A stretch of DNA of 61,613 bases, filler included, from Hausera hauseri (Eukaryota): NCBI GenBank assembly GCA_046269625.1. It is 12 parts of 12 records of this genome, joined end to end, with 100 filler letters (N's around TTAATTAATTAA, not from the genome) between each part and the next. Parts side by side here need not be neighbours in the genome. Positions count along the whole stretch, not along the records: positions 42,988 to 47,516 come from JBJURY010539786.1; positions 47,617 to 52,750 come from JBJURY010324939.1; positions 52,851 to 57,254 come from JBJURY010598555.1; 9 more parts are not named here. One strand, written 5' to 3'. Both the position numbers and the translations under genes were made by a program. Under the pieces are notes generated by a model, which saw only the letters and a program-made list of their open reading frames with translations, searched no databases and was not told where the DNA came from. Positions 174-60,300 of this stretch are shown one piece after another (the first letter of the stretch is position 1; every line of letters begins with the position of its first letter).

Positions 174-253
174 TGATTGTGATAATAATAATAATAATAG
201 TTAGTTGTTTTGTTTGTGTAATAAACCAAAAATGATTTTGTACATGATAAGTA

Positions 254-2000: not shown

Positions 2001-2299
2001 CTAACTTACTTTGTGTGTTTTTGTTATTTTAGTTTTTCTCCGATCAGTAAATAATTGTATTCGTGTTACGTATTTCCTTTTCTAGTGTAAGGTTATTCTT
2101 TTACTTTTACTTCTATCTTACTTAATAATAATAGGTTAAGTAAGTCACCGAAAACAAAACACAAAAACCACTGATCAAAATACGTTATTGAAATATAAAA
2201 AACAATATACATCTGATAATTGTCAATGATTGTCACAGTAATTAAAATGAACTGAACTGATTTGTCTGAACCGACAGAGCACCGATTGTTTTGACGCGC

Positions 2300-10649: not shown

Positions 10650-10982
10650 AAAGCCTATTTATCCCTCAAACTTGCCCAATCGTGACAATTTACAGCTGGA
10701 ATATTTTTTAAAGAGTACCATTAAAATCAAGAGATCAAATAGTTATATTAGCGACAAATTTTGCTTATCTNNNNNNNNNNNNNNNNNNNNNNNNNNNNNN
10801 NNNNNNNNNNNNNNTTAATTAATTAANNNNNNNNNNNNNNNNNNNNNNNNNNNNNNNNNNNNNNNNNNNNGAAGTAGAGTTAACGCTAATATTACAATTT
10901 CACGCACTGATTCAGCAAGGAGTAGTTCTGAATCAGACGAAAACCCCATTGATCGAACCAAATACTTACAGAAAGGAACTCA

Positions 10983-14480: not shown

Positions 14481-14764
14481 AAACAGAAGAAAAATAAGAA
14501 TGAGGAAGATGATAATAATAATGATGATGAACCTCCAGTAAAGATAAACGCGAGGAAACTTAAACCAGTAGAAAATAAAAGAAAGACATGGAGCCTGATT
14601 ACAGCTCGAAATAAAAAGAGGAGAACATTGTTATCAGATATTCCACAAATGCGGAAATAGAGTGAATACCCAATGGAACAATCACATTTTATACCTCCCA
14701 GTGAATACATAAACACATATTGCTCAAGCGATACGGATAATTATGATCAAAACATGTAAAGCTA

Positions 14765-24872: not shown

Positions 24873-24974
24873 TTTATAATAATAAGTAAAAATTTTCTTT
24901 TACCTTTCGTTTTTAGAAGACACTGTTTCTTCCGCTAGTGGAGGTTTTTTCTTTCTTCACGACGTCTTCAGAAA

Positions 24975-34268: not shown

Positions 34269-37200
34269 CAGACTCCACCGCAGCAAGGTTACAATAGAAA
34301 TCCGAGTAGATCGAAATCTCCATTAAACGAAGATGGCCGACAAAGTGTGGGAAGAAATGGCAATTTAGTCTGCTTCACATGTGGACAAGAAGGACACATA
34401 GCGAGGTTCTGTCCGATTCCGCGAAGTGTTTCGTTTGTGGAACCTAATAAAACCAGTGTAATTAAAAACGAAAATTTAGAAGCAATTTACAGTGTCCGTA
34501 GAGACACAGGAATGATTATCGAGGTACAGGATTTACGATGTTTTTCAAAAGAGCAGCCTGAGACTAAGGACCCCAAAAGTTTAGTGGCTAGAAATGAATA
34601 TGAGCACAAATTGCGACTAATGGAAGTTTACCATGGCCTGCGTGAACCAGAAATGGAATATGAACGTTCCATTGCCCCACCAAGGCTAAGTGATATGGCT
34701 CGGAAAAAGAACGCTCCTACGATAAACAAAGAACCAATCGAATCAGGGAAGTCTGAGACTCCGGGTAAGGCAGATTTAGAACCTGAGTATACTATAGAAA
34801 AAGTAACCAAGGATGCAGAGGCCGACGAAAAGGAAGAATTTCTCGAACCGCTTATACTTAAAATCACCAAGAATAGGGGCCGTAGCCCATCACTGAGACG
34901 GAAACGTAAAGATCGTTCAAGATCCCCAATGATCAAAGAGAAATTAAAGACAAAGAGAGATACCGAAATTACAATTAAGAGCAAAACCGGATGTGCATCG
35001 GACACTTCGAAAATTAATTTAGTTACGCCCAACGAAATGGGTGAGCTGATGAAATCTATAGATGAAATAAATGATGTATATCTCTTACCTGCGAGCGAAG
35101 AGGAAACAGATCTAAACAGATTCTAAAAGGTGGAAAATTAGGCGCTCATGGAAGAATGCAGAGGAGTTAAAAAGAATAAGGATGAACTATCGCAATCCAG
35201 AGGTATTACGCCAGAATCTAGAGAAGGTCAAAGCAATGAGCGAACAAGTGGATATTTCTGGTAAAGAACAGCAGTTTGTAGAAAGATTATATAAAAATAT
35301 GAAACTATGTAGCAAAGGGAAACTTAGTGAAGTTATAGATTTAGATCAACCAGAAGAAGTGGCAAAAGAAACCCTAGTTCAGTGGAATCGTAAATTAGAA
35401 CGGTGGATCAGAAATAAGACAAAACTTCCGGAGACATGGGATAAAACTACCAAAAAAAATTGAAACTAGAGTCAACCAGGTCCAATCGTTATTGGCTACA
35501 CTAGAAGCCAACCCGAAATCAAAAAAGATCAGCACGTAATTTGGAGCGTGTCATGGACGAAATTAGATTCATCATAATCGAACAACTAAAAAAGAAGCTG
35601 ATCAAAGAACGAGATGCAAACCACTTAGAAATGTTGGGCATAGATGTACTGGATATTCCGCCCTTAACGGAAATGATAAAAATCGCATCTACTGCTACAA
35701 GGCAGTATACTAGTTTGGAAAATCGTCTTAAAATAGAAGTCTAAAAGCGGTCGCAGATATATAGTCTAAGGAATAGGATCATGCACCCAGCTGATATAGA
35801 AACACAGAAAATAATTCTTACTTGTCTCCTCGAATTCGATGAATATAAGGATGAGTTTGACTATGCCTACCGGATCATCGATTTTATTAGAGGTCCAGAT
35901 GACAAGCCAGATGACGCTGGCAAAATGTTAAATAAAGCGATACTGGCAAAGCCAGAAATCGCTAACCAGTTGAAAGAATGGTCAGGAGTAATAACGAGGC
36001 TGAGTGAATTAGTGGTCGATCGGAAAAGGGAATTTCCAGAAAGTGAATCTACCGTTAAGAAGCAGCTGGAAGAAGACACCGAAACCTAGATACGATGAGA
36101 GCAGAGATTGACATCCGAACCCAATTCGAGGCAATACGTCAATTAAATTTTATGGAAAAGAAAGAGGAGATGATGGTGCTAAATAATATATATAAAATGA
36201 TTGAAGAAATTAATTTCACGCGAAAGCGAAACGCGACTTGCGATTTCTACCCACGACTAAGAGATGTCCGCTTGAAAGGAATACGTTGGTTGACAGTCAA
36301 ACCTATCGAAGAAATCTCAATGAGAGATCATAAAACTTTTGACTTTTGTCCCGAATACCGGTCAGCCATTAAAGAAGCAGTTAAGTTCTTACATCGTCCC
36401 CAGAAGTGGAGAGATGGAACGGACCAAAGACTTCATACCGAATTAACTAAAATAAAGAACGACCGCCACCTTAATTTCGAAGAGATTAAGTTCGTAGAAA
36501 AACTATTAGATGCTATAGATCCGGAATCAAAGAACATTAAAGAGATGTACGAGCTAGCGCTATTGATGGCAGAAATGGCAGAAATTAGTGACGAGAAACT
36601 AAGGCAATTGTCGCAGCACATACAGTAAGTCGAAGAAACTTGCATTCAGACGAAACAGAGAGCGATAAGGTTGGACGAATTAGCTAGAGAACTAGAAGTT
36701 TACAAAAACAAATATGTCCTTACAGAAGCCGAAAAGGCTGACAAGTCACAATTCATTCAAAGATGGCAAAGAGATGTCACCTCCGAACTAACGAAATACC
36801 AAGAAAGGAGTCTAATTTCTCCCGAAGAATTATGTTCGTTGTTAACACTGCTCCACCAAACGTCCGCTAATGGGCGATGTTTCTGAACGACAAAAATGGT
36901 CCAGATACAACAGAAATTACAAGAACTCCGAGCACCTACGTGGCCCACAGTAGTGGGCAGGCCAATCGATACACCGTTGAAGAACTATCAACTGCCAGAT
37001 AATGAGAATGAACCAGATTTGGAAGCCTATTTAAATGCAATGATTGCGGAAAATCCGAAAATCCCAATGCACTTAAGCGAAATGGAGATGTATTCTCCTG
37101 AACAAAGATTCAACGTAGAAATGCTTCTGGACCCAGCGCAAACTGAGAAGGATTTAACTCAGCTGAAAGAAATAAATCTTGCTGAAATTCAATTAAGACA

Positions 37201-38250
37201 GCTAGTCCCCACTCTAACTAAATTGGCTAGTGAAGGTACGATCTTCAGTACAGTACCTAAGCTTTTACTCAAAGAATATGCCAGAATTTTAAAGGTAAAG
37301 GCAGAAGATAAGATTCTAGTAAAAATAGCATCAGATTGGATGAAGGAGAAGGAATAAGAGTTCACTACGCGTTCCTTTATAAAGGATGTATTACTATGGA
37401 TAAAGAAAAACGGATACGCCCATGAGTTGAGCTATATGCTTTATTTCCGAGGAAGGATATTAGACGAGACGGAACAATTAATAGAAGTTGGAATTATTCC
37501 GGGTGAAGTGAACCGATTGGTAATAACCACCGCTACCGACGAGACAAAGGAGGAGGCTATAAGAAAGGCTAAAGCAGAACAACAGGTAGGACGAATAATG
37601 GGAGTCCGAGATGCAGCAGTGTATTTTGAGTATTTTCAAACGGATGAAGATAATAAGCAGTATGATAAAAATTTAGTACCGATCGATGGCAATATAACCG
37701 TGGTAACAAAACAGAAACGTCCTGTTGGTAGACCACGGAAGATACGAGATGAAATCGATTATAATGGAGACTTGATTAGAGAATTGAGGCAAATGTCCAT
37801 ACCGACCGTTGGCGCAGATAATGAGGAACTGAACTCAATGATGAAAGATTTAATAAGAATAGTAAACTACCCTAGCCTCAGCAGTGATATATTAGACGAG
37901 AAGGAGAAGGCCATAGCGAAAGCTGCAAAGGCCATGAAGAATCTCTGCTGTAAATCAACTAAGAGCACTTTAAGTGATGAAATGATAATTGAGAAAATTA
38001 TGGTAGAAAATACTCTAGCGGAACTGAGAAAAGTATTACTATACCTGGCCATTAAAACCAATCCGAATCGGGAAAATGAGTTCATCAAGGCTACTAGCTT
38101 GGCAAGGAAGGCTGTCAGGAAGTTACCCCGAGAAGTGAATTGGTCTAAGTTATTCGAAAAAGAGGAAGAACATCAGAGTGGATTCTCCTTCGATAGCAAT
38201 AAATTCGGAGAATTGCTACGAAATGTAACTGGAAATCAAAAAGGAAACGA
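34269..38250 (+). pseudogene. Gag C-terminus (CCHC) plus ~1,270-codon accessory region with a ubiquitin-like domain and AT-hook
   Basis: CFTCGQEGHIARFC at ~34370; ORF pieces follow closely in a few frames; UBL-like segment ~37310-37530; KRPVGRPRK at ~37714-37741. Confidence 0.7.
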
Positions 38251-38256
38251 ATCGAA

Positions 38257-38480
38257 TTGGCTAATAAACTTTCTGATCATGATGATGTTGATAAAAAAAT
38301 GGGTGCAGTCACAGTATATGATTGTGACAAATTTAGACTTGGCCAAAAGTACTCACTAATGGACTTGGAAATCTGTGAGGACGCGAGACCACACAAATTA
38401 GAAACAAAAGAAAAGAGTTACGTATTATACCAACAACGTGAACTACTTGCATTAGATGGAGTAGAATGTGTGTTGAGACT
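38257..38480 (+). pseudogene. env: N-terminus of chuvirus-like glycoprotein, truncated
   Basis: WLINFLIMMMLIKK/MGA|VTVYDCDKFRLGQKYSLMDLEIC..YVLYQQRE..VEC; homologous to 12675-12900. Confidence 0.75.
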
Positions 38481-40789: not shown

Positions 40790-41810
40790 ATGCACCACCA
40801 GCAGCTATGATTCTGTTCAATCTTGATTGTAGCTTATCGAAAGCTTCCCGTTAGAACACCCGGTCTTTGGAGTTAAGCCACGATAGTCTATCATTTCGAA
40901 TTGTACAGACGTCATGATACACTTTATTTCTGAGGACAGTTTTAAGGGCGAGAAAATAAAATAATATGATGGTGATATGTCTGTTGAATAAGGAGGATGA
41001 GGTATTAATGTTAATCTATTACCAACAGTCTTTTTTAGGCTTTGTTTTGTGACATGAGGTCTGCATTGCCTTGGAGGAAAAACAATTTGGCATTATCACC
41101 AAGCAATCGTCGTCTTTTCTGTTGAATATCAATTAATTGGGCCGTAAATTTTTGGTAGTTAAGGCTTTTTGCACCGCTAATCCACCGCGAAATTTTGGAT
41201 TTTTCTCGGCAAAGATCCAAAATTCCGCGGTAAAAAGAAAACTTTAACTGCGAAAAATTCACCACCCTATCAATGAGGAATTGACTGAGTTTTCAGCATT
41301 TAATCTTTAAATGCGCTGGAACACTTGAATGGATATGAGACCTTTATAATCCTAAAACACAATGGCAACGTGCTTCTAGATGGTAAGTGTTTGTTTAACA
41401 GCACTGGCTGGTGAATCACCAAATCCACACCAACTGCGATTGTGGTAAGATTCTCTACTATCTCACTCATTTTTATAAACTGTAATTAGTCTATGGAGGA
41501 AATTGTTATGTTCAAATATACTGATGAGTTTATTACATACGCGAACCCTTACTGCTTTGCTAACTTCGCTGAGATGATGTGGTAGCCACTAGTTTACTCT
41601 GTATGATTTCTCCATTTCATGTTATCCGTTAATCATTGTTTTGTGGTCTACGTTCAATATTTATGCCATTTGACGACCTTGCATGTAGGTTTTCATATAA
41701 TTTGTCTTTTATTTCATCATCGATTGACACAGATGGTCTACCCACTCTTCGCTTCTCTTTGCTGTCAATTTCACCATTACTGAATATTTTGAACCAATTT
41801 TTACACGTTA
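40790..41810 (-). pseudogene. Degenerate mariner-type transposase
   Basis: [24 protein letters not shown] (HTH); FFLQGNA..PHPPYSTDISPS.Y.IFSPL (variants of HDNA and YSPDLAP). Confidence 0.7.
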
Positions 41811-42134
41811 TTTCTTCACCAGGGCTCGTCCGTCCATCAAGGACTGCTTCAGTAACTCCTGGCTTCAAGATGCCTACCTGATGCGGCTCCGCAGGCAGAC
41901 GCTCACCTTTACAACCACGCGTCTCAAGGAGTTCCTGGCCGACCAGCAGCGGCGGCGGCAGGAGGTCGCCACCAAGCACAAGGTCCTGCTGCGCACCTAC
42001 CAGGGCTCGCCGCGGTCTCCGTCGCCTGGCGCTGCGCCAAACGTTCCCACCCCGAAGTGAGGCGGTGGCAAAAAAGATAGGACTTTTTAGATCCTAATCC
42101 TAAAAAAAATACAAAACAAAAAAAAAGTCAAACT

Positions 42135-42987: not shown

Positions 42988-45847
42988 TTGTCCGGATTTG
43001 CGCGATACGGAGTCATCCCTAAGTCCGTAGATAAAATTACTTCGCGTCCATGAATCATAAAAATGGTATAAATCCTGTGGCGGGGTGTGGCATAGTATTG
43101 ATAGCGAATTGTGTTCCTTCTAAAAATTCATCCCAGTCCTTTTGATTCTTCGCTACTACGGTTGATAAGACACGTATAACTGTGGCATTCATACGTTAGA
43201 CCATCAATTGCACTGAGGGTGGTAAGCGGTAGTGGTTAGTCGTTCAGTCTCGAAGATTTTAGAAATTTTGTCAAATAATTCGCTTGTAAAATTTCTTCCT
43301 GTATCGGTTAGTATTTGATCGGGCGGTCCGTATCTGCAGATGATTTTCCTTACTACTGCGTCTGCTAATGTTTCCGGTTTTCGATCGATTAATGCGATTA
43401 ATTTCACGAAGTGTGTTAAACGATCTAAGCATGTCAAAATATATTTGTTATTTTTATGAGTTGTAGGTAACGCTCCTAATATATCTATAGACATAGCCTG
43501 CATAGGTCCTTCTGGTACGTCGATCGGTTTCAATTCTGCTATATAGTTTTTCACTTTTCTTTGTTTTGTTGCACAGACTTCACAAGCGTCCACCAAATTT
43601 TTCACATCGATATAAACGCTTAACCAGTAATACTTATTCAATATCCTTTCTAATGTTTTGTTCCATGACATATGCCCGGCTAGATGTGAATCATGTTCGG
43701 CCATTAGTACTTCGGTGCCTAATCCTTTTGGATTAACTACCAGCTTCCGTCCTTTGCGTTCATAATATAAAATATTATCCGGATTTGATGCATAATATTT
43801 ATGTCCGTGTCTCTGTAAGTGTTTCTTCCAATTGAGCTTTCTTCATGGTTGTAATCGTACTTGTCTTTGTTTTAAGTCTTGATAAGGCGTCTGCGTGTAC
43901 ATGTTTACTTCCCGGTTTATATTGAAATTCTATATTGTACCGTAAAATTTCCTCAATCCATCAATTTAGTCTACACGTCGGGTTATTAGCCCGTCCCTTA
44001 AGCGTCGTAACAGCTTTATGATCGGTAACTATAATAATTTTCTTTCCGTAGACATAGACATTAAAATGTCTCAAGGCTTCTTTTACGGCTAGTGTCTCTA
44101 AATCAGTGACTGAATAGTTTTTCTCAGCTTTCTTAAGCAATCGTCCTCCGTATGAAATTTGATGCTCCAATTCTTCATCTTTTTGTTTTTGAGCTAATTC
44201 GTAACCAGTTCCTTCCGTACTTGCGTCTGTTTAAATTATAAATGGTAAATTGAAGTCAGGGTATCTTAACACTGGTTCACTTGTTAAAATTTTCTTCATT
44301 TCGTCGAACGCTTTCTGTTCAACATCAGTCCATTTCCATTTAATTACTTTCTTCAATAGCCGATATAATGGTGCATTTATTTTCTAGTTTTCTGGAACGT
44401 AGGTGGCATAATATCCGCATAAGCCTAACGAATGCCTTAATTCTTTCTGATTCTGGGGTTCCATACAATCTGATATTTTGTTTAACAAGAATTTGTATGG
44501 CCTCGATCCTCCTTCTCCGACTATATGTCCGAGAAAAGACGCGGAATTTTGTGCCCATTTACGTTTCTTTGGGTTTAGTTTTAATCATGCCTGCTCCAAC
44601 CGCATAAGAGTATCTTCGATGGCTTTTAGGTGTTCTTCTTCTGTTCGTGACGCTATCATTACATCGTCTAAATACGCAAACGCATGATCTAGGCCCATTA
44701 GCATCTTGTTCATCATTCTAGTAAAAATATCTGGACCGGTTGTTATACCAAACGGCATGACGTTAAATTCATAAACTCCATCGTGCGTTTTAAATGCTAT
44801 CTTATAACGATCATCTTCTTCAATTTCTACTTGCCAATATCCGGATTGTAAATCCAGAGTTGTAAACCATTTTGCTCCTGATAATCTGCCTAGAACTTCC
44901 TTTACTGATGGTAGTGGAATTGAGTCCTTCATCAAAAGTGTGTTTAGGGCTCGGTAATATATACAGAATCGATGTTTTGTGGTACCTTTTTTCTTAATCA
45001 TGAGTATTGGTGAGTACCAAAATCGATAGCTTTGTCGTATTATGTCAGCTTTTAATATACGTTCTACTTCTTTTGTTATTTCAGGCCTTAACAAATGCGG
45101 CGGTGTTTACTATTTTGGCATATTTTGCTCTTCCAAATCAATTTCATCATTGGAGCCAGATTTCATTTTTAATGAAATGGTTAATCTTAAGGTTTTCGCT
45201 CTAGTTATGTCTTCTTCATTTTGGGCAATAAGTGACTTATATTTGCATAGTAGTTCGTAAAATTAACAATATACTTCCGGCGAAAACTTAGTTTCAACAT
45301 GAGGTGGAAATTCAGCATATTTATATGGTTTTTCTTCGATTGTTATTGCTGACACCTTATAAGTATGAACCAATGTTTTCATCGACGGAATTCATACTTA
45401 TCCTTGCTTCCTTTCTTTCATTGTTTCAATCCCTTTCAGTGGTCCAAGTTCAAGTAGTTTTCCAGTCTGTAAATTTATTGCGATATTGGGTAATTGCTTC
45501 AGTATATCGCATCCTAACACTACATCATGAGTTAATTGATCCATTATGGCAAACTCGTGTTGAAGGATTTAACCCATTAATTGAATTAGAGGACTCCATT
45601 TAAACTTTGGTTTGGATTCTTTCCCGAAGGCTCCTATGCTGTCTGGATCTGACGATGATGCTGGCTGCAGTTGTTTTCGTAGTGTCGGCGGTATTGATTC
45701 TAATTTTATAAATGATTTCTCCGATCCGGTGTCGATTAAGGCATAGACTTCCCAATTTTCAATAGTAACTTTTGTGAAGGGTCTTCCTTCCATAACTGAT
45801 CCATAAGAACTCGACACGTCTTTTGGTCGTTTAATCGAAGAAATCAT
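42988..45847 (-). pseudogene. pol: Ty3/Gypsy pol (PR-RT-RH-IN), lineage B copy 1
   Basis: ALIDTGSEKSFI; LDLQSGYWQV, MPFGI, YLDD; NYSVTDLETLAV..VTDHK; HHCC, TAYHPQCN. Confidence 0.93.
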
Positions 45848-46054
45848 GTCCGTTTATCGTTATCTCTGGTGATAAAATAATATTTTCGGTTAGTTGTTTC
45901 AGTTCTTCGTTAGGGTATAAGTCGTTAACTGCCATATTGTTCGCATTGTTTCTAATTAATGGTTCTTGGACTATTGGATTTTGGAACGATTTCACTCCTT
46001 GTGTTCCCCAGACTGTTGATCTTTTTCTATATTGCAAGCTATCCTCGGTGAGTA

Positions 46055-47516
46055 CTATATCCCGTGATCGTCTTCCGTTCGTCGTTGGTTAGTGATTTGT
46101 ATCTTCTTTAAGACTCCATATTGTTTTGTTCCTTCATAAGGATCTTCATAGCTGAAGGGTTTCTGACAGAATGCTGATCTATATGACATCATAAATGTTT
46201 TGACACAATTCTCGTATATCGGAGCCGTTGGCGGCATGATAGGTAAGGGTGCTCTAATTACTGAATACATTTTGTGTCTATTTTGTCTAAGAATCGCATC
46301 TCCTCCCTTAGGCTCGTCATCATCTGAATCATTTCTTCGCGTCATTGGTTTCTTAGTTTTGCGTTTTAGTCGAAATATGGGTCTTGCTCGACGTTTATGA
46401 TTATAATAGCCGACATGGCGTTCAACATTATTTTTCCATCGATTTTCTTCATACGCTTTAAGTATTTTGCCAAACGGTGTGATGATTGCTGTCAGTATTT
46501 TACATGAAAATCCAGTCAGCGTAAATATCTCGTATCCATTAATTACCGCTTGGATGACGGCCTTAACCATCTGTATTAGAAAATATATTGCTAAGAATCT
46601 GGATGCGGTTTGTCCGAAAATCAAAAATCTTCCCTAAATTTTAGAGTATTTCTGTTGTTACTCTCTGATAGTGGTTTACTTCAAGTAATGATTCCCATTT
46701 AGCCTGATATCGTGTATCATCTATTACCGAGGCCATGGCTCGATTTAATTCATGAGTCCGCTGTCGCGGAAAGTCGAGAAATTGTCTGTATATACCTTTC
46801 GAGGAGATGTCTTGAAATTTATCGTCCGTAATCTTTTTTGCAAGATTAGTCTCTGTTAAGTTATTTGGAGCGGCGGTAATACCTCCGTGTGGCAAGCTAA
46901 CCCAGTCTGTTTCGCTACGTCTAAACATGGGTTTTCCTAAATTTGCCTTGCAATTTTTAAGAATGGTTGGTTGGGTTGCATTATCCAATAACACTCTTGT
47001 CAACGGTATAGCCAACCGTGGAATACTCTGATAGATAACAAGAAGTTCCTGTATACAACGTATTTCTTCTACATTAATGGGTACGTCTCTTTTTTCACAT
47101 TTGTAAGTTAATAATACTTCGCCCGTTACTCGACCAAAGATTTCTTCTCTCATAGGAATTATTGGAGAAGCCAATTCTGGGTTGGCGTATATGACAGCCA
47201 ATTTTGTCCTCATAATTTCGGGATCCAATTTGCAGTCGTTCATTATCATTTTGTGGTATAATTCCGTTATTCCGGCTTGTCCTTTATAATAGAAGTAATC
47301 ATCTCTGTTTTTTAGGTAATCCTCGATTCGGACGTCCTGAGTTTCTAGCTTGTAAGTCCTTGCATTTATTTCTGTCTCTGCGACAAAAAATGCTTCGTAG
47401 TTGGTGGCGAACATTACTACATCACAACGAGAGATCATTGCTTTCTTGATAAATTTTAGTCCGTGTTGGTCAGAGATTAATATAGTGGGTGTAGAATGTT
47501 CGGATACATCCTCGCG
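46055..47516 (-). pseudogene. env: Chuvirus-like glycoprotein (C-terminal half, TM, cytoplasmic linker), lineage B copy 1
   Basis: ELYHKMIMNDCKL..GRVTGEVLLTYKCEK..CIQELLVIY..PLTRVL..KGIY..FLDFP; FGQTASRFLAIYFLIQMVKAVIQAVINGYEI..ILTAII. Confidence 0.85.
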
Positions 47517-47616
47517 NNNNNNNNNNNNNNNNNNNNNNNNNNNNNNNNNNNNNNNNNNNNTTAATTAATTAANNNNNNNNNNNNNNNNNNNNNNNNNNNN
47601 NNNNNNNNNNNNNNNN

Positions 47617-47852
47617 GTCAAAACGATCAGAAATGTCTCAAATAATATAAGTCGCACTGAAAATGTAATTGCCTTCATACCAATGAAGTCCATGACGATG
47701 TCAAAAGAGAAATTCGTTAGGTCTATCCGTCAGGTCTTTCCACGCAATTCCGGTTCAAAAATGTTACCGACGTCCATAATGCATAATTCCTTTATCAGGT
47801 ACCGGGCACTATCATCTTGGAAAGCTTCAATATTTATAAATCCTGTAGCCAT
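47617..47852 (-). pseudogene. DEDD-like protein N-terminus (homolog of 254-742)
   Basis: MATGFINIEAFQDDSARYLIKELCIMDVGNIF. Confidence 0.55.
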
Positions 47853-47936
47853 TACTTATCATTTTTTACAAAATCATTTTTTGTTTATAACATAAGAAAA
47901 ACAACTAACTATTATTATTATTATCATTACAATAAT

Positions 47937-48407
47937 TAAACATAGGTGGTTTTGTCCATATCACCGAAACCGAATTTTTTTGCGTTTATTTCGTGTTGAT
48001 TCATGCACACAAAACAGTCCCAATTGTTCTGGTTACATTACACTAAATTCCGCCTCTTCACAGCGAACAAAAACGATTTGTGCTATTGCACTGCCTTTTG
48101 AAAAAGCATAGGATTTACCCAATTGGTTTTCTAGCAACATATTAATTTCACCACGAAAGGCCGAATCAATGGCGTCACCCGCAACCGTCAGTCCGAGCTT
48201 TTCCAGTCCGCTTTTCGATAAAAGTTGACCGTAGTAACGCGGTGAAATCGCCAATCGAATCCCATTCGTTATGCATTTGATTGTGCTGTCCGGAATTGTC
48301 GTATTGACATTGGAAAACACGTCGTAGCCTGCACTGCTTGCTGTAACACGTCTCGGTACAAAGGCATTTTCGTCTGTTAAAATAATCTTTACATCATTAA
48401 TTATCAT
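47937..48407 (-). pseudogene. dut: Trimeric dUTPase
   Basis: SAGYDV, YGQLLSKSGL, GDAIDSAFRGEI, IAQIV; premature TAA at 48033 (TCA in the other copy); GFG tail. Confidence 0.9.
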
Positions 48408-48500
48408 TATTCTTATGCCAATTTTTTAAAATTAAACGTATATTTATACTCGTTATTTGGGTTGCTGAAAGAAGATGAAAAACAACGGTAAAAGAAATTT

Positions 48501-48900
48501 ACTTATAATTAATATGTGCTTCAGCTACGCACCAAATCGGGCTTTTGATACCAGCTTTTTCCTTGTATCCTTGCAATTTAATGTTAAGTCTACACTTTAA
48601 ACCAACACTATCATCATCATCGGGTACATGAGACATTTCGCGACCGATAAAATCAAACTATTTCGTTTTCTGCACCGGTAAATCGACAGATTGCTGTTGC
48701 GCTTTCGTTTCGTTCAACTTTAAATATACGTTTAATTGATGTAGAGCATCAGAAAGTTTATCCAGATTTTCACCCGAAAGCCGTTTTACACGATAGCTGT
48801 ACTCCGGTGCACATAGAGACACGGGATCATTCAATGAAATCAGTATGGGAGTTTGCAGAAAATGCATTTCGTACTTGCGAAAAATTCGTTTCGGTAAAAA
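48501..48900 (-). pseudogene. Unknown Maverick protein (possible OB-fold), paralog of 1538-2000
   Basis: ORF 48658-48867 continues in frame past one stop to CRLNIKLQGYKEKAGIKSPIWCV. Confidence 0.5.
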
Positions 48901-48924
48901 TATTTGTGTCTGGCGTGCAACGGT

Positions 48925-49332
48925 GACGTTATTGTCACCGACGATTTATTTCAGGAAGCCGCAAAACAATCGGACTTTAACAACCTGTTCACGAAGATTG
49001 CATGAAACCGTGGCGTAACGGTTATTTTCATTACGCAATATATGTTCCATCAGGCCGGCCAGAATCGAACAAGAAATCTAAAAGTGCACTATTTGGTGTT
49101 GTTTAAAAATCCCCGTGATAAGACTATCATTGGTTATGTTGCACGACAAGCATTTCCTCACAACCGAGCCTACTTGATATATGCATATCATGATGCTACA
49201 AACAAATAGCATGGATATCTGTATACTGACTTTACACAACAGTGTCCCTACTACATGCGTGTACGAACAGACATTTTCAATCAGAAAGGTGGTGCATGTG
49301 TCTATAAACGAATTCGAAAATCGACGACATGA
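48925..49332 (+). pseudogene. A32-like packaging ATPase, N-terminally truncated
   Basis: VIVTDDLFQEA (Walker B), VIFITQ, HYLVLFKNPRDK, ARQAFP, AYHDAT..HGYLY.D, RVRTDIF; no Walker A. Confidence 0.85.
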
Positions 49333-49525
49333 TTATGATAAAAAAATAAAAAATTTCAGAAAAACAATTTTTAAACCTAAACCTGCTACCAAGCGGGTGT
49401 CCGGCGGCAAGAAACGTGTATCAAAACGAAGCGCTGCTACAGTGAAGCGATTAACCAATTCAGTGCTTCGAACAACAAAAGCAGCAGCTAAACGCAAATT
49501 ACCGTCACAGTGGCAACGGTTATAA
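49329..49525 (+). CDS. Small basic protein (Maverick core-like)
   Basis: K/R-rich, contains VSGG, ends QWQRL. Confidence 0.4.
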
Positions 49526-49578
49526 ACAACTACATCTCATCATCATCGTCATCAGCAGTATCAGTACATCCGAGAAAC

Positions 49579-49905
49579 ATGCGACTCAAAGGTAGTCAGT
49601 CATACTTTATTGCTTTGCTCAAGGTACCTACGAGACATAAGTGAAACATGCTACGATCATTCCCTCAGTTTGTAGTAGATGATTTGATGGAAATTTTATA
49701 CAATATCGTTGTGGGCCACGTTGACATTGGTAGTGGAAAGCGGAATTTACTAAAGTATCGAAAACGACTCATTGGCCTTGCCAATATCCGTAGTAAACGA
49801 TTGAAAGGAGAGGTAATATACCAGCAAGACGGTGAAATCCTTGGTGCAATTCTACCGATTGTCATGTCATTACTGGGTGGTCTCATTAGTTCTGCAACAG
49901 CATAA
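49579..49905 (+). pseudogene. Conserved small Maverick protein with amphipathic C-terminus
   Basis: EILYNIVVGHV...LLKYRKRL..LA...QQDGEILGAILPIVMSLLGG, a variant of the QxGGFL..LL family. Confidence 0.6.
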
Positions 49906-50017
49906 TATAAACAACGACGGTAAGTATATGGTGTTTCGGCGATATGGTTGCATAGTTTTCATATTTCTGTCCCAGTTTACCAAATCTTTCATTTACGTTT
50001 CGTTCTAATTGTTGTAA

Positions 50018-51073
50018 TGCAAGCAAAATCGACATCATCGACGACAACACCGATGGGCGACATGTGGTTCGATCCGCGTCATTCCGTCGGCTATACTGGG
50101 GTCAACAAACTAGCAAAGACTATCAAACAGACTCGGCAACAGACCCAACGTTGGCTCGGGCTGCAGTTAGCATACAGCCTAAACAAACCGATGAGAAGGC
50201 GGTTTCCAACTCGTGAATACCGTGCTGCCGGTGTAAATAATGCATGGCAAGTGGATCTGATGGAAATGATTCCGTACGCCAGCATCAACGATGGGTATTG
50301 GTACGTGCTGACATGTGTTGATGTATTCAGTCGTTTTGCACGTGCAATTGCTGTGAAATCTAAATGCGGTAAAGAGATTGCCGACGCTGTTCAGACACTG
50401 ATGCAACAACAACAACAACAACAACCGAAGCATTTACAAACGAATTTGGGTAAGGAATTTTACAACGCCCGCGCTGCAGCGGTCTTGAAACGGTTTGGCG
50501 TAAACCACTACTCGGTGTTTTTCCAATAAAAGGCTACACTCGTTGACCGATTTAATAGAACATTGCGCGATCGCCTAAACAAATTCTTTATGAAGCAAGG
50601 CAACAAACGCTGGGTAGATGTACGGCCGGATATTATTCATGCATACAACCAATCGACACATCGGATTACGATGGATGTAATCAATGATTTGGACATGTGA
50701 ATTTATCAAAACCAAACACGACGACGACTAACTAAACGTCCCAAGTATAAAATCGGTGATTATGTACGTATTTCAAAGCTTAGTTTAAGACTCTTCATTA
50801 AGAATTTCAATCAAAACTGGAGCGATGAGGTTTTCCGAATTTTAGCAATCAACACAAAACAAACACCTGTTGTGTACGTTTAAAAGATGAAAATGGTGAC
50901 GAAATACATGGCAAATTTTGCGAACAGGAACTGCAAGTACTACCGGAAAAACCGGATATGTATAGTATTTAGGAAATTCTATGTTCACGTGGCAAAGATT
51001 CGAATAAACAATATCTCGTCAAGTGGCACGGATACACTACACCGAATTGGATATTTGCATATCAGATTGAGTG
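50018..51073 (+). pseudogene. int: Maverick rve integrase with C-terminal chromodomain
   Basis: WQVDLMEM..YVLTCVDVFSR..LQTNLGKEFYN..VDRFNRTLR..YN..H..YKIGDYVRISK..NWSDEVF..YLVKWHGY. Confidence 0.92.
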
Positions 51074-52038
51074 ATGAGCATTTATTTGATACTTGACAAC
51101 AAAAACAATATTGCTGAACGGTTTACCACGGCGTTGGACCATCCGCTTGACTTACGCCAGGGAGCATGGGAAGTGGCTTTGTTAGAATTCAGGTTTACAT
51201 TTTTACCAATAACAGTACGTGAGAACAGTGGAATATACAATACTCTACTAATACAATCTCCTGCATCTAGTCGTTTGCAAGCGGCAATATTTCCCGGTTT
51301 ATATTTTTCATTTAAACAATTGATTGTTGCAAAAACACAAAAATCCGATTGAATTGCTCAGGCATGGGGTTTTCAATCTGTTAATGTGCGCTCGAAGTGT
51401 CTACAGCTGAGTAGACATAAGATAATTAGTAAAAAATGGAACTTTTCCACTGTGAAAACAACCAATATTACAGCAAACTGGCAAAAGACTGTATTACTCT
51501 TTTACTCTCATACAACAGGAATTGGTTTTCATACGGAAACGGAAACATAATTGTATGCAACCATCAAGGCAGTATCTAAATTGGCTCTCAAGACATCTGA
51601 ATTAAACTCTGATGGTCGTATTTCGTTTACACTACACAATAATGTTACATATTTTGACTTCGATGAACTATTGGCGCGGAATCTGGGTTCTAAAAAACGA
51701 GAATTCGGTCAAACCGGCGGCGAGCGGTCCATTGTTGCCAAACACAAACCACATCTCTACGAAGCATTTCACTGAATCAATATTTATCGAATCTAACCTA
51801 ACCCGTATATGTTGGCGGAGACCGTAAACAACTACTGGCTCCTATTGGACTGGATTCGGACATGTACGAAACACCGCCCGAAACCACTCATATAAATGTC
51901 ATCCGGCCCATGTATTTATCGTTGTCTCACAATGTTGTGCACAGTATTTCCGTGAATATAGTAGACGAATTTTGGAAACCCACTAAATTTCTGTTTGGAG
52001 CCAAGACATATTTTATGCTACATTTTCGTCGTCGATAA
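51071..52038 (+). pseudogene. Maverick penton-like minor capsid protein 1
   Basis: MSIYLIL..FTTAL.HPLDL..AWEVALLEF; C-terminal YVGGD..PMYLSL..ISVNIVDE..MLHFRRR. Confidence 0.75.
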
Positions 52039-52074
52039 TAAACAAACTGCGTCAACACCATTATCATCGAGATC

Positions 52075-52750
52075 ATGAGTATTTATTTGGTGTTGTCGAG
52101 CAACAGTTGTCCGACGATTCGTCCGAACATTTCAACCAGTGAATACGTTTTGGATTGGAACAATCCTTTGGATTTATCTTGACAATGGGAAGTTGCACTG
52201 ACGGAATTTAACTTTCCTTACGCACCGGTGACATTGAAAGGTAGTATGAAAATAGCGTACAACAAGACTGTTACTGAAACCAAAATACATTCTTGTCCTG
52301 TGACACTTACTGACAATGAACTAACAGTTGGAGAATTGCGATTAATACGGCAAAATCGGCGTTTTTATTTTAGACAAAAACTTACATTTATAGCAGATTT
52401 TGAATTTACTGTTTCTTTGAGTCCTCTGAGGTGGGGTAGAAATTTGGATTCGAAAATACAAAGTACAAAGGTCAAAATATTAAAAGTGAATATGTAGTTG
52501 CTTCTAGATTAAGTCCCGTATATTACCAGACAACGGTGAAATTTACCGATACAACAAAAAGGGTGCCAAATCATACGTATTGATTGGAGACCATGTCTAT
52601 TGCGAATCTGTAGCACAGCTCTGTCAACACTTTTCTTCAAATCAAAAGTTTTCGAGTCAGATGCAAATAGGAGCATTAAATTTGAACTGGCTAAGGATAT
52701 TGTCGACATTTTATTGGACAAAACTTTGGCCATGGTATTGGGTTTTGAAA
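52075..52750 (+). pseudogene. Maverick penton-like minor capsid protein 2 (truncated by contig end)
   Basis: MSIYLVLSSNSCP..RPN.STSEYVL..NPLDLS.QWEVALTEFNFP. Confidence 0.75.
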
Positions 52751-52850
52751 NNNNNNNNNNNNNNNNNNNNNNNNNNNNNNNNNNNNNNNNNNNNTTAATT
52801 AATTAANNNNNNNNNNNNNNNNNNNNNNNNNNNNNNNNNNNNNNNNNNNN

Positions 52851-53640
52851 CTGGATAACGCTACCCAACCAACCATCCTTAAAGATTGTAAGGCAAGCTT
52901 AGGAGAACCCATGTTTAGACGTAGTGAAACAGACTGGGTTAATTTGCAAAATGGAGATATTACTGTCGGTCAAAATAAATTAACAGGAACAAATCTTGCG
53001 AAAGGAATTACGGACGACAAATTTCAAGACACCTCGTCGAAAGGCATATGCAGGCCTAAGTAAATCGAAGCCTTCGGACAATTCCTCGCTTTTCCACGAC
53101 AACGAACACATGAATTAAACCGAGCCATGGCCTCGATAGTAGACGATACACGATATCAGGCTAAATGGGAATCCATACTTGGCGTAAACCATTATCAACG
53201 AGTAACCACAGAAATATTTTACAAAATTTGGGGAAGATTTTTGATTTTTGGACAAGCCGCATCCGGATTCTTAACAATATATTTTCTGATACAAGCAGTA
53301 ATAAATGGGTATGAAATATTTACATTGACCAGATTTTCATGTAAAATACTGACTGCAATCATAACGCCCTTTGGAAAGTTCTTAAAAGCATAGGAAGAAA
53401 ATAGATGGAAATTGGACGTAGAACGCCATGTTGGTTATTATAATTGTAAACGAAAAGGAAGGCCTATGTTCTTGTACCAGCGGAAATTTACAAAACCTAA
53501 TACGCGAAAAAATTATTAAGATGATAACGAGCCTAAGAGAGGAGAAGAACTTTCAAGAATAAACAGACATAAGACGTACTCTGTCATTAAAGCATTATTG
53601 CCTATGCCACCTACTACCCTCCAGTCTATGAAGATTGCGA
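52851..53640 (+). pseudogene. env: Chuvirus-like glycoprotein C-terminus, TM and tail, lineage B copy 2
   Basis: Homologous to 46200-46990; IWGRFLIFGQAASGFLTIYFLIQAVINGYEIF. Confidence 0.85.
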
Positions 53641-53650
53641 CAAATGATTA

Positions 53651-56600
53651 ATGAGTTCATATCAAACGGAAATCTATAAAAGGACATTTAATGTAGAAGA
53701 CCCTTATGAAGGAACAAAACGTTACGGAGTCTTACGGAAAATGTGTTACCGACAGTCCAGGGATGATGCCAGGATGTTGTATTTTTTCAGAGAACCTCGA
53801 AATATAGAGACTAAATGGCCTGTCTGGGAAAACTCAAGATTAAGAATCTTCTGAAACATAGAACCGCACACTAACAACAGGGAACCATTAATCAGTACTC
53901 ATGAAGCGGAAGAATTAAACATAGAAAACAATGAATTATACCCAAAGGGAGAGTTAAGGCAACTGGCAGAGAACATAGTATCCTGCCCAGAAATCCGAAT
54001 CAATGGACATAAAATATCGGCGACTAAATGCCCAAAGGTAGAATCAAACTGTTTTTGAAAAGTAATAGAAGGAAGACCTTTCGCCAAAATCGCTATTGAA
54101 AACTGGGAAGTTTATGCATTAATCGATACAGGGTCCGAGGAGTCTTACATTAAAAATGATTCAATACCTCAAACGCTCAAAAGACAATTATACCCACCGT
54201 GTACAAAAGATCCTGGAAGTACAGAAGCTTTTGGCCAAATGTCAAAACATATGTTTAAATGGAACCCGGATATTCAAATAATTGACAGTTTTTCCGTCAT
54301 GAATTTGCAATTGTGGAACAATTAACTGACGACGTAGTTTTAGGGTGTGATCTACTGAAAAGGTTACCAAATATAGCAATCGACTTGCAAACAGGAAAAT
54401 TAATAGAAATTAGACCAAATAAGGGTATAAGAAACGCTAAAGATAGGAAGTTCGCAGAAGTGTGGATACCAGTCGATGAAAATATTCCACCAAGAACAGA
54501 GATAATAATCTATGCTCAAGTTCAACAAGATGACGATCAACCGGTATATTTTAAACCAAAGGAGGCATTAAATCATAATATAACGCTCAGTAACGTACTG
54601 ACAATAATACACTCCGGTCGTATACCAATCAGAATAGCAAACAACGCACCGGAACCCGTAAAGCTCCATGCTTATACTACTCTAGGAGATACGTATAGAG
54701 TGTCGTCGATAACTATTGAAGAAAAGCCTTACAAGTATGCCGAATTTCCACCTCATGTCGAAACTAAATTTTCTCCTAAATCTTATTGTCTATTTTATGA
54801 ACTGTCGTGCCGCTATAAATCAGTTATCGCTAAAGACGACGAGGATATCGGTAGGGCTAAAGCATTAAGATTGACTATTCCGCTTAAGAAAAAGCCCGGT
54901 TCAAACGAAAAAATAGATCTTGAAGATCAAAAGATACCGAAATGGTATCCCCCGCCACATTCACTGAGATCCGCGATAACAAAGGAAGTTGAACAGATGC
55001 TAAGGCCGATATGATTAGGCCCAGCTATAGATCTTGGTATTCACCAATTCTCATGGTTAAGAAGAAAGGTGCCACAGAATATCGATTTTGAATTGACTAC
55101 AGAGCCTTAAATAACCTTATGATAAAAGATTCTTTCCCAGTACTATCAGTAAAAGAGGCTTTAGACAGACTGTCAGGAGCAAAATGGTTCGCCACTCTGG
55201 ATCTACAATCCGGATACAGGCAAGTAGAGATAGAGGATGTGGATCGATATAAAACGGCATTTAAAACACACGATGGAGTGTACGAATTTAACGTCATGCC
55301 ATTCTATATCACTACCGGGCCAGCTGTTTTTACAAGAATGATGAATATGATGCTAATGGAAATGGACCATGCCTTCGCATACTTAGACGACGTTATGATA
55401 GCAAGGACAGAAGAGGAACATTTAAAGGATATTAAACACACATTAATGAAGCTGGAATAAGTCGGATTGAAACTAAATCCGAAGTAATGCAAATGAACTC
55501 AAAACGCAGTATCCTATCTTGGCCACATAGTTGGAGAAAGAGGATCGAGACCAGATAAATCGCTATTAAACAAAATATCAGATTGCATGAAACCACAGAA
55601 CCAAGAAGAGTTAAGGCACTGGCTAGGACTCTGCGGATATTTTGCCGCCTATGTGCTAGATAATTCGAAAATTAATGCACCCATATATCGTCTACCTAAA
55701 AAGTGAATATAATGGAAATGGACGGATGTCTAACAAAAAGCCTTTGACGAGATGAAGGAGAAATTAACAAGCGAATCTGCTTTACGGTACCCAGACTTTA
55801 ACTTACCTTTTATAATCAAGACAGACGCCAGTAAAGAAGGCATTGGATATGAATTAGTGAAGAAAAGGGATGATAAAGAACTAGAACACCCAACTGCTTA
55901 CGGAGGACGTTCCTTGAAGAAGGCTGAAAAAATTATTCCGTCACCGAGCTAGAAACTTTAGCCGTAAAAGAAGAACTTCGACACTTCAAAGTTTACGTAC
56001 ATGGGCAGAAAATTATAATAGTCACTGATAACAAAGCCGTCACGATTTAAAAGCCGAGCAAATAACCCGACATGTAGACTTAACAGATGGATCGAAGTAA
56101 TCTCTAGATACAATATCGAATTCCAGGATAAGCCAGGAAATAAACATGTAGATGCCGATGCACTGTCAAGATTAAAGACCAAAACAAGCGCAATCACGGT
56201 AATGAAGAAAAGTCAACTTGAAGCAATAATAGATCGCCAACTCGGCTTAACGATAGATAAAGCAATTAAAATCTCCACAGAACAAAGAAAGGATAAAGTT
56301 ATTCAGCAGATTATAGAATTTGCTAAAAAGGATATCATACCAAAGGGCCGAAAATTAAAGAAACATTTACACAGACATGGACATAAATACTGAGTCTTAA
56401 ATGACAAGACCAAGGGGATATTTTATATTATGACCGGAAAGGAAGGAAACTGATAGTTATTACAAAAGGTTTACAAACCGAAGTGCTAATGTCGGAATAT
56501 AATTTATATTTAGCAAAACACATGTCCTGGAAGAAAACATTAGAAAGAATATTGAATAAATACTTTTGGCCCAGTATCTATATTGATGTAAAGAATTGGG

Positions 56601-57254
56601 TAAGAGCTTGCGAAGTTTGTGCAACTAAACGAAAGAAAACGAAAAATTACATAGCCGAACTGAAACCAATTAGTGTGCCCGATAGGCCTATGCAAGCCAT
56701 GTCCATGGATATCGTAGGACCTCTTCCCACATCTCGCAAGAACAATAAGTATATCTTAACTTGTATTAATCGATTAACTCATTTTGTTAAATTGATAGCG
56801 TTAATTGATCATAAGGCAGAGACCTTGGCCGAAGCGGTAGTAAGAAGGATCATTTGTCGATATGCACCACCGGACCAAATATTAACGGACCGAGGAAGGA
56901 ATTTTACCAGTGAACTCTTCGAGAAGATTACCAGGATATTTTAAATCTAACGATTAACAACTACCGCGTATCACCCTCAGTGTAATGAAATGGTTGAACT
57001 AATGAATGCAACTGTCATACGCATATTATGAACAGTAGTAGCTAAGGACCAAAAAGATTGGGATGAATTTTTAAAAGGAACTCAATTTGCTATTAATACC
57101 ATCCCACATCTAGCAACAGTATTTACGCCATTTTTCATGACTTATGGACGTGAAGCTCTGTTACCCACAGATTTAGGAATGACGCCATACACGGTCAATC
57201 CCGAAGATTTAGAACAAAATTTTGCAGAAGTACTGCAGACGCGATTACAAAAAT
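53651..57254 (+). pseudogene. pol: Linker plus Ty3/Gypsy pol (PR, dUTPase-like spacer, RT, RH, IN), lineage B copy 2
   Basis: ALIDTGSEESYI at ~54117; LDLQSGY, YLDD; TDASKEGIG; HHCC; TAYHPQCN. Confidence 0.93.
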
Positions 57255-57354: not shown

Positions 57355-60300
57355 ATGGTGTGGTCTTTCATGGTGTGGTCTTTCATAGTATAGTATTCCA
57401 TGGTGTGGTCTTCCATTGTGTGGTCTTTCATAGTGTGGTCTTTCATAATATGTTCCTGCATGGTATGGCCTTCGTTGTCGGGTTCTTCCGTGGTGCGGAC
57501 TTCCATGGTGTGGGCTTCCATGTGGTGGTCTTACATGGTGTGGTCTTTCATGGCGTGGATTTTATTTGTGTGGTATTCCATGGTGTGGTCTTCCATGATA
57601 TGGTCTTTCATGGTGTGGTTTTTCATGCTGTGGTCCTCCATGGTATGCTCTTCCTTGACGTGGTATTAAATGGTGTGGCCTTCCATGGTGTGGTCTTTCG
57701 TGGTGTAGACTTTTATAATATGATCTTCCATGGTGTGGTCTTCCTTGTCGTTGTCTTCCATGGTGTGGCCTTCCATGGTGTGGTCTTTCATTGTGTGGTA
57801 TTCTATGGTGTGGACTTCCATGGCCTTGTTTTCCATGGTGTGGTCTTCTATGGTGTGTTTTTGATGCTGTGGTCTTTCATGGTGTGGTTTTCCTTGGTGT
57901 GGTCTTTTATGGTATGATCTTCCATGGTGTGGTCTTCCTTGTCGTTGTCCTTCATGGTGTGGTCTTTCATGGCGTGGTCTTTATTTGTGTGGTCTTGCAT
58001 GGTGTTGTCTTGCATGGTGTGGTCTTTCATGGTGTGGTCTTTCATGGTATCGTCTTCCATGCATTGTTCTTATATGGTGTGGTCTTTCATTATGTGGTCT
58101 TCTATGGTGTGGTCTTCCATGGTGTGGTCTCTCATGGTGTGGTCTTCCATGGTGTGGTATTCTATGGTGTGGTCTTCAATGTCGTGGTCTTCGAAGGTGT
58201 GGTTTTTGATGTTGTGTGTTTTCATGGTGTTGTCTTCCATGCTGTGGTCTCTTATGGTGTGGTCCTTCATCGTGTGGTCTTCCATGTCGTGTTTTTCGGT
58301 GTTTTTGACTTTCGTGTAGTGGCATTTCATGGTGTGGTCTTTCATAATTTTGTCTTTTATGGTGTGGTCTTTCATGGCGTTGTCTTCAATCATGTGAACT
58401 GCCATGTTGTCTTCTTCGATGGGGTAATCTTTGGTGGTGTGTCCTTGCATGCTGTGGTCTTCCATGTTGTGGTCTTCCATGGTGTGGTCTATCATGGTGT
58501 GGTCTTTCATGGTAGTGTCTTCCATGGTATATTCTTCCATGTTCCAGTGCTGCTTGTCGTGGTCATCCATGGTGTGGTCTTTCATGGTGTGGTCTTTCAT
58601 TGTGTGGTCTTCCATGGTGTGGTCTTCCATGGAATGGTCTTTCATGGTGTGGTCTTCCATGGTATGGTCTTACATATTATGGTCTTACATGGTGTGGTCT
58701 ATCATGGTGTGGTCTTCCATGGTGTAGTCTCTCATGGTGTGGTCTTCCATGGTAGTGTCTTCCATGGTATAGTCTTCCATGCTCCAGTGCTGCTTGTCGT
58801 GGTCATCCATGGTGTGGTCATCCATAGTGTGGTCTTTCATTGTGTGGTTTTCCATGGTGTGGTCTTCCATGGTGTGGTCTATCATGGTGTGGTCTTTCAT
58901 GGTATAGTTTTCCATGGTATAGTCTTCCATGCTGTAGTGCTGCTTGTCGTGGTCATCCATAATGTGGTCTTTCATGGTGTGGTCTTTCATGGTATGATCT
59001 TGGATGGTGTGGTCTTCCTTTTCGTGTTCTTCCATGCTGTGGTCTTCGGTAATGTGGCCTTTCATGGTGTGGTCTTTCATAGTATGGTCTTCCATTGTGT
59101 GGTCTTCCTTGTCGTGGTCTTAAATGATGTGGTCTTCCTTGTCGTTTTCTTTCATATTATGATCTTTTATAAGGTGGACTTCTATTGTGTGGTCTTCCAT
59201 GTCTTGGTCTTCCATGTTGTGGTCTTACGTCGTGTGGTCTTCCATGTCGTGGTCTTACATGTTGCGGCAAGTCATGTTGTGGTCTTTCATGGTGTGGTCT
59301 TTCATGGTGTGGTCTTTCATAGTATAGTATTCCATGGTGTGGTCTTCCATTGTGTGGTCTTTCATGGTGTGGTCTTTCATAATATGTTCCTGCATGGTAT
59401 AGCCTTCGTTGTCGGGGTCTTCCGTGGTGTGGACTTCCATGGTGTGGGCTTCCATGTCGTGGTCTTATATGGTGTGTTCTTTCATGGTGTGGTCTTTCAT
59501 GGTGTGGTCTTTAATTGTGTGGTCTTCCATGGTGTGGTCTTCCATGGTGTGGTCTCTCATGGTGTGGTCTTCTATGGTGTGGTATTCCATTGTGTGTTCT
59601 ACCATGTCGTGGTCTTCGAATGTGTGGTATTTGATGTTGTGTCCTTTCATGGTGTGGTTTTTCATGGCGTTGTCTCCCATGCTGTGGTATCTTATGGTGT
59701 GGTCCTTCTTTGTGTGGTCTTCCATGTTGTGGTCTTCGGTGTTACTGACTTTCGTGTAGTGGCATTTCATGGTGTGGTGTTTCATAATTTTGTCTTTCAT
59801 GGTGTGGTCTTTTATAGCGTGGTCTTCAATTATGTGAACTGCCATGTTGTCTTCTTCGATGGGGTGGTCTTTCATGGTGTGTTCTTCCATGCTGTGGTCT
59901 TTCATGGTGTGGTCTTTCGTGGTGTGGTCTTTAATGGTATGATCTTCCATGGCGTGGTCTTCCTTGCCGTTGTCTTCCATGGTGTGGCCTTCCATGGTGT
60001 GGTATTTCGTGGTGTGGACTTTTATCGTATGATCTTCGATGGTGCGGTCTTCCTTGTCGTGTTCTTCCATGGTGTGGTCTTCCGTAGTGTGGCCTTTCAT
60101 GGTGTGGTCTTTCATGATATGGTCTTCTATGGTGTGGTCTTCCTTGTCTTCATTTTCCATGGTGTTGTCTTCCATGGTGTGGCCTTTCATGGTGTGGTCT
60201 TTCATAGTATGGTCTTCCATTGTGTGGTCTTCCTTGTCGTTTTCTTTCATATTATGATCTTTCATAGGGTGGACTTCTATTGTGTGGTCTTCCATGTCTT

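What the first reader, a model, noticed from the sequence alone, without database searches (positions are those of the whole stretch)
42988..57254. Ty3/Gypsy retrotransposon with a chuvirus-like fusion glycoprotein apparently fused in-frame upstream of the protease (G-PR-RT-RH-IN polyprotein)
Seen: two related copies on separate contigs (42988-47516 minus; 52851-57254 plus) run glycoprotein ectodomain, hydrophobic TM region, ~250-aa linker, DTG protease, RT, RH, IN with no intergenic gap. Their lesions fall at different positions. Copy 2 is open across ectodomain-TM where copy 1 is frameshifted. Copy 1 is open across TM-linker (KAYEEN..PPTAPIYENC..DPYEGTK) where copy 2 has a TAG and a frameshift. 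Copy 2 stays in one frame from DPYEGTK to ALIDTGS, and its two TGAs align with sense codons in copy 1 (SFQN, SYGSV). Established: env in errantiviruses and retroviruses is normally a separate ORF after integrase, and chuvirus-type G capture has been reported for BEL/Pao elements. The motifs here (xxYDC..SLLD, C..ELPV.Y, GIY, FG..SxG..I.....I.GY) fit chuvirus G. Inference: the ancestor made one polyprotein that threads G into the ER and returns PR-Pol to the cytosol, tethering Pol to the envelope protein in a flavivirus/alphavirus-like way.
Basis: partly seen in the sequence, partly recalled or inferred. Interest (0 to 1): 0.92.

Follow-up and report, generated by a model that had tools for sequence, protein, structure and literature searches.

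The report
Decayed retrotransposon with in-frame envelope
Two broken copies of a virus-like jumping gene carry a herpes-gB/chuvirus-type membrane-fusion gene directly ahead of their enzyme genes, likely once as one long protein, a striking layout that is already published for flatworm elements.

Summary
The feature is real but not a new kind. Both contigs run class III glycoprotein (PF24664), membrane anchor, linker, protease, RT, RNase H, integrase. Both are decayed. None of 28 stop positions is shared, and the linker shows third-position-biased divergence in the coding frame. Of the 28 best glycoprotein relatives, 15 reach through the anchor and 11 of those continue in frame into a protease. 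One 3,735-aa relative reads Gag-X-G-PR-RT-RH-IN. The copies' RT is Ty3/gypsy-type and groups with these fused relatives (95/97). The models match chuvirus G and herpes gB. In-frame env between gag and pol was published for planarian Burro elements (PMC6431247), and GAG-ENV-POL order with gB-type env for flatworms, bryozoans and nematodes (PMC13524379). The scan noted this layout before on other DNA. Gag is missing here only because the contigs end. Membrane topology and processing are inferred and untested. Lasting tethering of Pol to G is unsupported.

The parts
46644..47516 (-). Copy 1: C-terminal half of class III glycoprotein ectodomain (cut by contig end; frameshift near 46642)
   Evidence: PF24664 E 5e-18; model pLDDT 84.5; best viral match E 9e-10
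46541..46597 (-). Copy 1: predicted membrane anchor
   Evidence: hydropathy 2.05; lies in the PF24664 match of the 46633-46058 frame
45791..46540 (-). Copy 1: anchor-to-protease linker (stop at 46057; two compensating frameshifts)
45491..45790 (-). Copy 1: aspartic protease
   Evidence: PF00077 E 3e-6
43937..44998 (-). Copy 1: RT and RNase H, same frame as the protease, with stops
   Evidence: RVT_1, RT_RNaseH, RT_RNaseH_2; best solved match Ty3 Pol E 9e-76
43058..43842 (-). Copy 1: integrase (broken; cut by contig end)
   Evidence: tblastn with intact relatives
52851..53390 (+). Copy 2: end of ectodomain and shortened anchor region
   Evidence: PF24664
53391..54070 (+). Copy 2: linker (stops at 53391, 53517, 53645, 53852, 54056; frameshift near 53610)
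54071..55007 (+). Copy 2: protease and PR-RT spacer (spacer partly missing in copy 1)
   Evidence: PF00077 E 0.0015
55008..57254 (+). Copy 2: RT, RNase H, integrase (broken; cut by contig end)
11031..16450 (+). Third, more decayed kin on another contig: Gag capsid-like region (11031-11411), G (12672-14305), protease (about 14846), RT
   Evidence: tblastn; frames
34269..38478 (+). Fourth kin fragment: CCHC zinc knuckle, about 1,200 codons of unassigned sequence, hydrophobic segment, start of G
   Evidence: zf-CCHC; G match E 3e-9 at 38302-38478; frames

Best explanation
These are two dead copies of a Ty3/gypsy retroelement with a class III (gB/chuvirus-type) envelope gene placed just ahead of protease-RT-RNase H-integrase, which likely made one Gag-Env-Pol polyprotein when active. 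Shown: gene order, fold class of G, Ty3/gypsy Pol, unshared lesions, and intact relatives with the fused layout. Inferred: a hydrophobic segment just before G would act as an internal signal and send G into the ER lumen, where signal peptidase would free its N-terminus; the anchor after G would stop transfer and return linker and Pol to the cytosol; the element's protease would then cut Pol free, leaving a trimeric fusogen in the membrane where particles would bud.
For: 0 of 28 stop positions shared between the copies; mismatches favour third codon positions in the anchor (4/0/17), linker second part (39/46/71, p 0.004), protease (15/15/37) and RT (57/33/136). Copy 1's anchor frame and protease-RT frame are the same frame. 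4 of 120 listed long Pol relatives carry PF24664, each in the order G-PR-RT-RH-IN; cluster members add a 2,226-aa and a 3,735-aa protein, the latter with capsid and zinc knuckle in front. Of 28 G hits at E<=1e-10, 15 reach through the anchor and 11 of these run on into a protease. RT tree of 49 chosen rows: copies 1 and 2 lie in a 14-row group with all 9 fused relatives included, support 95/97. Folds: copy 1 fragment matches chu-like G at E 9e-10; relative P0139 matches herpes gB at E 2e-13 and Z 10.3, rmsd 8.4, 421 aligned. A hydrophobic segment precedes G in 10 of the 12 relatives where G's start was found, and one follows G in 14 of 14 where the anchor motif was found.
Against: No intact member of this very family was found, so the fusion is inferred from two decayed copies plus relatives whose Pol is only 35-39% identical. 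4 of the 15 G hits that pass the anchor end 5-80 residues later. The first linker part shows only a weak codon signal (16/17/29, p 0.079). The relatives were seen as predicted proteins, not as DNA (one search found no locus). A second, weaker hydrophobic segment after the anchor passes the cut-off in 3 of 14 relatives, so the number of membrane passes is not settled. In the larger quick tree the same group had only SH-aLRT 80 and held one unrelated long branch.
Confidence: 0.85

Rival explanations
1. Env and Pol were adjacent but separate frames in this family, joined by programmed frameshifting, readthrough or splicing.
For: In copy 2 the anchor frame and the protease frame differ by one shift near 53610. 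4 of 15 G hits end soon after the anchor. PMC13524379 allowed gaps between ENV and POL in its search and does not say in the passages read that they are fused.
Against: Copy 1 is open across that place. Some related contigs of run X1 differ in length from copy 2 at that place, so the lesion is not common to all copies (table 4). No slippery heptamer is seen there by eye. 11 of 15 relatives are fused.
Confidence: 0.1
2. One polyprotein, but Pol stays covalently tethered to G and is packaged through it.
For: The linker is conserved as coding sequence; a transient tether before cleavage follows from the fusion itself.
Against: No direct evidence. A protease sits right after the linker, and many relatives carry two or three protease domains. 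Retroviral-type proteases cut themselves out of their precursors (established knowledge).
Confidence: 0.15
3. G was a passenger with no role in particles, for example acting in cell-cell fusion or in blocking superinfection.
For: No particle or infectivity data were found in the papers read; the copies are dead.
Against: G diverged under coding constraint (12/14/33; 86% identity, the highest of the nine regions), and the full ectodomain, signal-like segment and anchor are kept across relatives.
Confidence: 0.15

Closest known systems
Burro / GYPSM1 giant Ty3/gypsy elements of planarians (PMC6431247, section 7 read in full)
   Same: Env in frame between Gag and protease in one polyprotein, with hits to mononegavirus fusion glycoproteins. 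Relatives found here show Burro-type extras: a Bcl-2 fold ahead of G in P0139 and ankyrin repeats in clade member P0028.
   Different: Giant size, LTRs and accessory domains cannot be seen on these 4.5-kb contigs. That review likened the env to gypsy Env and baculovirus/paramyxovirus fusion proteins, whereas the folds here are class III. No Burro sequence was compared directly.
GAG-ENV-POL 'ancient errantiviruses' with HSV/gB-type ENV of Platyhelminthes, Bryozoa and Nematoda (PMC13524379; abstract, sections 5 part 1, 6, 14, 22, passages, and rows of two supplements read)
   Same: Ty3/gypsy Pol, gB-type Env, env before pol. The Smed_errantivirus ENV rows in supplement 2 resemble by eye the G of the relatives and of contig 10871-16450.
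   Different: The copies here are decayed and lie on a long RT branch (0.76). The text read does not discuss in-frame fusion or processing. Its figures could not be seen.
Nematode endogenous retroviruses (Sacco et al. 2022, J Gen Virol)
   Same: Cited in PMC13524379 for flipped ENV/POL order; a continuous gag-env-pro-pol frame is my recollection of its abstract.
   Different: Paper not held; not compared.
Anakin, Pao elements with chuvirus G (PMC7642597; abstract and section 18 read)
   Same: Chuvirus-type glycoprotein on an LTR retroelement.
   Different: BEL/Pao backbone; here Pol is Ty3/gypsy-type.

Membership tests
Ty3/gypsy (Metaviridae) | Pol order PR-RT-RH-IN | tested here: met
Ty3/gypsy (Metaviridae) | RT-RNase H closest to Ty3/gypsy | tested here: met
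   best solved match Ty3 Gag-Pol E 9e-76, against 2e-53 for the next enzyme and 1e-25 for retroviral Pol; RT_RNaseH families
Ty3/gypsy (Metaviridae) | LTRs, primer site and Gag on the same element | not testable with these tools
   both contigs end inside coding sequence; no genome held; Gag seen only in kin
BEL/Pao (Anakin) | Pao-type Pol | tested here: not met
   no Pao-specific Pfam family in copy 1's PR-RT-RH at E<=0.01; nearest rows are gypsy-type; no BEL/Pao RT was in the tree
Class III fusogen (gB / chuvirus G type) | Profile and fold match | tested here: met
   PF24664; BFVD E 9e-10; all listed PDB rows are herpes gB but at E>=0.005 for the fragment; E 2e-13 for full-length relative P0139
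Class III fusogen (gB / chuvirus G type) | Trimer, fusion loops, fusion activity | not tested
   the fusion-loop half of G is absent from both copies
GAG-ENV-POL gB-type errantiviruses | gB-type env upstream of Ty3/gypsy pol | tested here: met
Burro sensu stricto | Single Gag-Env-Pol frame | tested here: inconclusive
   inferred for these copies; seen in relatives
Burro sensu stricto | Over 25 kb, with BIR, Bcl-2, ubiquitin-like and ankyrin modules; RT in the Burro clade | not testable with these tools
   short contigs; no named Burro sequence available from a tool

The most novel reading that the evidence does not exclude
This clade is a flavivirus-like retroelement lineage whose single polyprotein crosses the ER membrane repeatedly and yields two surface proteins: the class III fusogen before Pol, and a second signal-ectodomain(-anchor) protein after integrase (seen in 6 of 9 relatives with integrase, and at window 8654-9810) that serves as the receptor-binding partner, a herpes-like division of labour. 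The searches found no description of it.
Probability: 0.3. Interest if true: 0.65.

Novelty: new member of a known kind. Interest (0 to 1): 0.27.

Why it matters
It adds a divergent, very abundant but decayed family to the Gag-Env-Pol envelope-carrying gypsy elements, and supports in-frame Env-Pol fusion as the rule in this clade rather than a Burro oddity. It also pins the env as class III. The open question, how one membrane-spanning polyprotein is processed into capsid, fusogen and enzymes, is better studied in intact relatives than in these dead copies.

Tried and rejected
Searches for intact members of this family found none: longer proteins with copy 1's G or anchor-linker, viral contigs, metagenome contigs; these are weak negatives. 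No whole genome is held. No RNA holder listed. One run (X1) holds many related short contigs, but none spans the junction; whether other copies share the stops in the G-protease stretch remains open. A remnant second protease in the linker of copy 2 is not supported (E 0.51). A dUTPase-like identity for the PR-RT spacer was not shown. Ubiquitin-like or Bcl-2-like modules in contig 34269-38692 looked possible by eye, but Pfam, PDB and Atlas searches gave nothing. An alternative genetic code was rejected: all three stop codons and frameshifts occur at different places in the two copies. Paper searches: 'gag-env-pro-pol' 0 papers; NERV terms 0; topology terms 0. The tree used 46 of 126 relatives plus 3 window rows; long-branch P0027 and near-duplicates were left out. 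The tree used 130 of 131 rows.

Full report
Observation. The window is a chain of 12 short contigs. The two regions named are whole contigs, 70-74% alike at DNA level. Three-frame translation and Pfam show in both: the C-terminal part of a PF24664 'Monjiviricetes fusion' glycoprotein, a hydrophobic anchor, a linker of roughly 250-275 codons, a DTG protease, RT, RNase H and integrase, with no non-coding gap. Both start inside the ectodomain and end inside integrase. The YDC..SLLD motif it quotes lies in two other contigs, at 12744 and 38317.

Was the junction coding? A pairwise comparison lists 28 stop positions; none is shared (27 face a sense codon, 1 lies in a stretch the other copy lacks). 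Mismatches fall mostly on third codon positions in ectodomain (12/14/33), anchor (4/0/17), second linker part (39/46/71, p 0.004), protease (15/15/37) and RT-RNase H (57/33/136); the first linker part is weaker (16/17/29, p 0.079). So the copies diverged as coding sequence across the junction and decayed separately. In copy 1 the anchor frame and the protease-RT frame are the same frame. Run X1 holds 17,441 short contigs alike to copy 2 over its whole length, and some differ in length at the place of copy 2's linker frameshift; the family is abundant, and that lesion is not universal.

Intact relatives. A search with copy 1's Pol listed 120 of 310 long relatives; 4 carry PF24664, all in the order G-anchor-PR-RT-RH-IN. 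Their clusters added P0131 and P0132; P0132 (3,735 aa) reads capsid-zinc knuckle-unassigned region-G-PR-RT-RH-IN-membrane protein. An independent search with copy 1's G gave 125 hits, 28 at E<=1e-10. Of these 28, 13 end before the anchor, 4 end 5-80 residues after it, and 11 continue into a protease. I saw these as predicted proteins only; their DNA was not retrieved. No intact member of this exact family turned up. Within the window, contig 10871-16450 is a third decayed element in the order Gag-G-PR-RT, and contig 34269-38692 runs zinc knuckle-long unassigned region-start of G.

Identity of the parts. The best solved match of copy 1's Pol is Ty3 Gag-Pol (E 9e-76). In a quick tree of 130 RT-RNase H rows the five nearest rows to each copy are its sister copy and four fused relatives, in a weakly supported group. 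In a careful tree of 49 chosen rows, both copies fall in a 14-row group with all 9 fused relatives included (95/97; bootstrap not fully settled). No BEL/Pao RT was in either tree. The model of copy 1's ectodomain half (pLDDT 84.5) matches chu-like and other negative-strand RNA virus glycoproteins best (E 9e-10) and herpes gB weakly (E 0.005). The model of full-length relative P0139 (pLDDT 82.7) matches herpes gB at E 2e-13 and Z 10.3, with a Bcl-2 fold in front. G is therefore class III. Whether it came from a chuvirus is not shown; PMC13524379 argues for an ancient association.

How it likely worked. In the relatives a hydrophobic segment directly precedes G (10 of 12 by rule) and one strong segment follows it (14 of 14), with a weaker second one in 3 of 14 (simple hydropathy, no topology predictor was available). 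The simplest reading, all inferred: Gag is made in the cytosol; the first segment acts as internal signal; G enters the ER lumen and is freed by signal peptidase; the anchor stops transfer; protease and Pol return to the cytosol, where the protease cuts them out. Lasting tethering of Pol to G has no support.

Comparison with what is known. PMC6431247 (section 7) describes the 4,873-aa Burro polyprotein, with env between BCL2 and PR, hits to mononegavirus fusion glycoproteins, and calls it the first case of in-frame env between gag and pol. PMC13524379 reports GAG-ENV-POL elements with gB-type ENV in Nematoda, Bryozoa and Platyhelminthes; its figures could not be seen and may say more about fusion and topology. 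Sacco et al. 2022 was not held. PMC7642597 covers the BEL/Pao case. Notes on this same genome call the host a probable flatworm; I did not test that.

Verdict. A real, well-supported, decayed new member of a known kind. Interest 0.27. The part still open is processing, and the second membrane protein after integrase in relatives.

Noticed in passing
window 8654-9810 (+); relatives P0033, P0035, P0131, P0132, P0134, P0146: After integrase comes a second hydrophobic segment, an ectodomain and usually another anchor (Ig-like in P0131). P0029 has such a unit in place of G before its protease.
   Followed up: partly
relatives P0033, P0034, P0035, P0135, P0141, P0144: Two or three aspartic-protease domains per polyprotein, one of them after integrase in three cases.
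   Followed up: no
window 41728-42060 (+): Reads like the C-terminal exon of a vertebrate SPEG kinase (recalled, untested) in an otherwise invertebrate-like set of contigs; no Pfam hit.
   Followed up: no
window 1-6312 and 47617-52750: Two decayed Polinton-like contigs (polymerase-, integrase-, ATPase- and dUTPase-like frames by eye), 78.7% alike over 530 bases.
   Followed up: no
window 17645-24899 (-): An apparently intact two-frame gypsy element without envelope (688-aa Gag-like and 1,741-aa Pol frames), outside the G-fused group.
   Followed up: partly
window 31543-33023 (-): Intact pogo/Tigger-type transposase (DDE_1, HTH_Tnp_Tc5, CENP-B_N).
   Followed up: no
window 57355-61613: Degenerate 15-base tandem satellite that gives long spurious open frames.
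   Followed up: no
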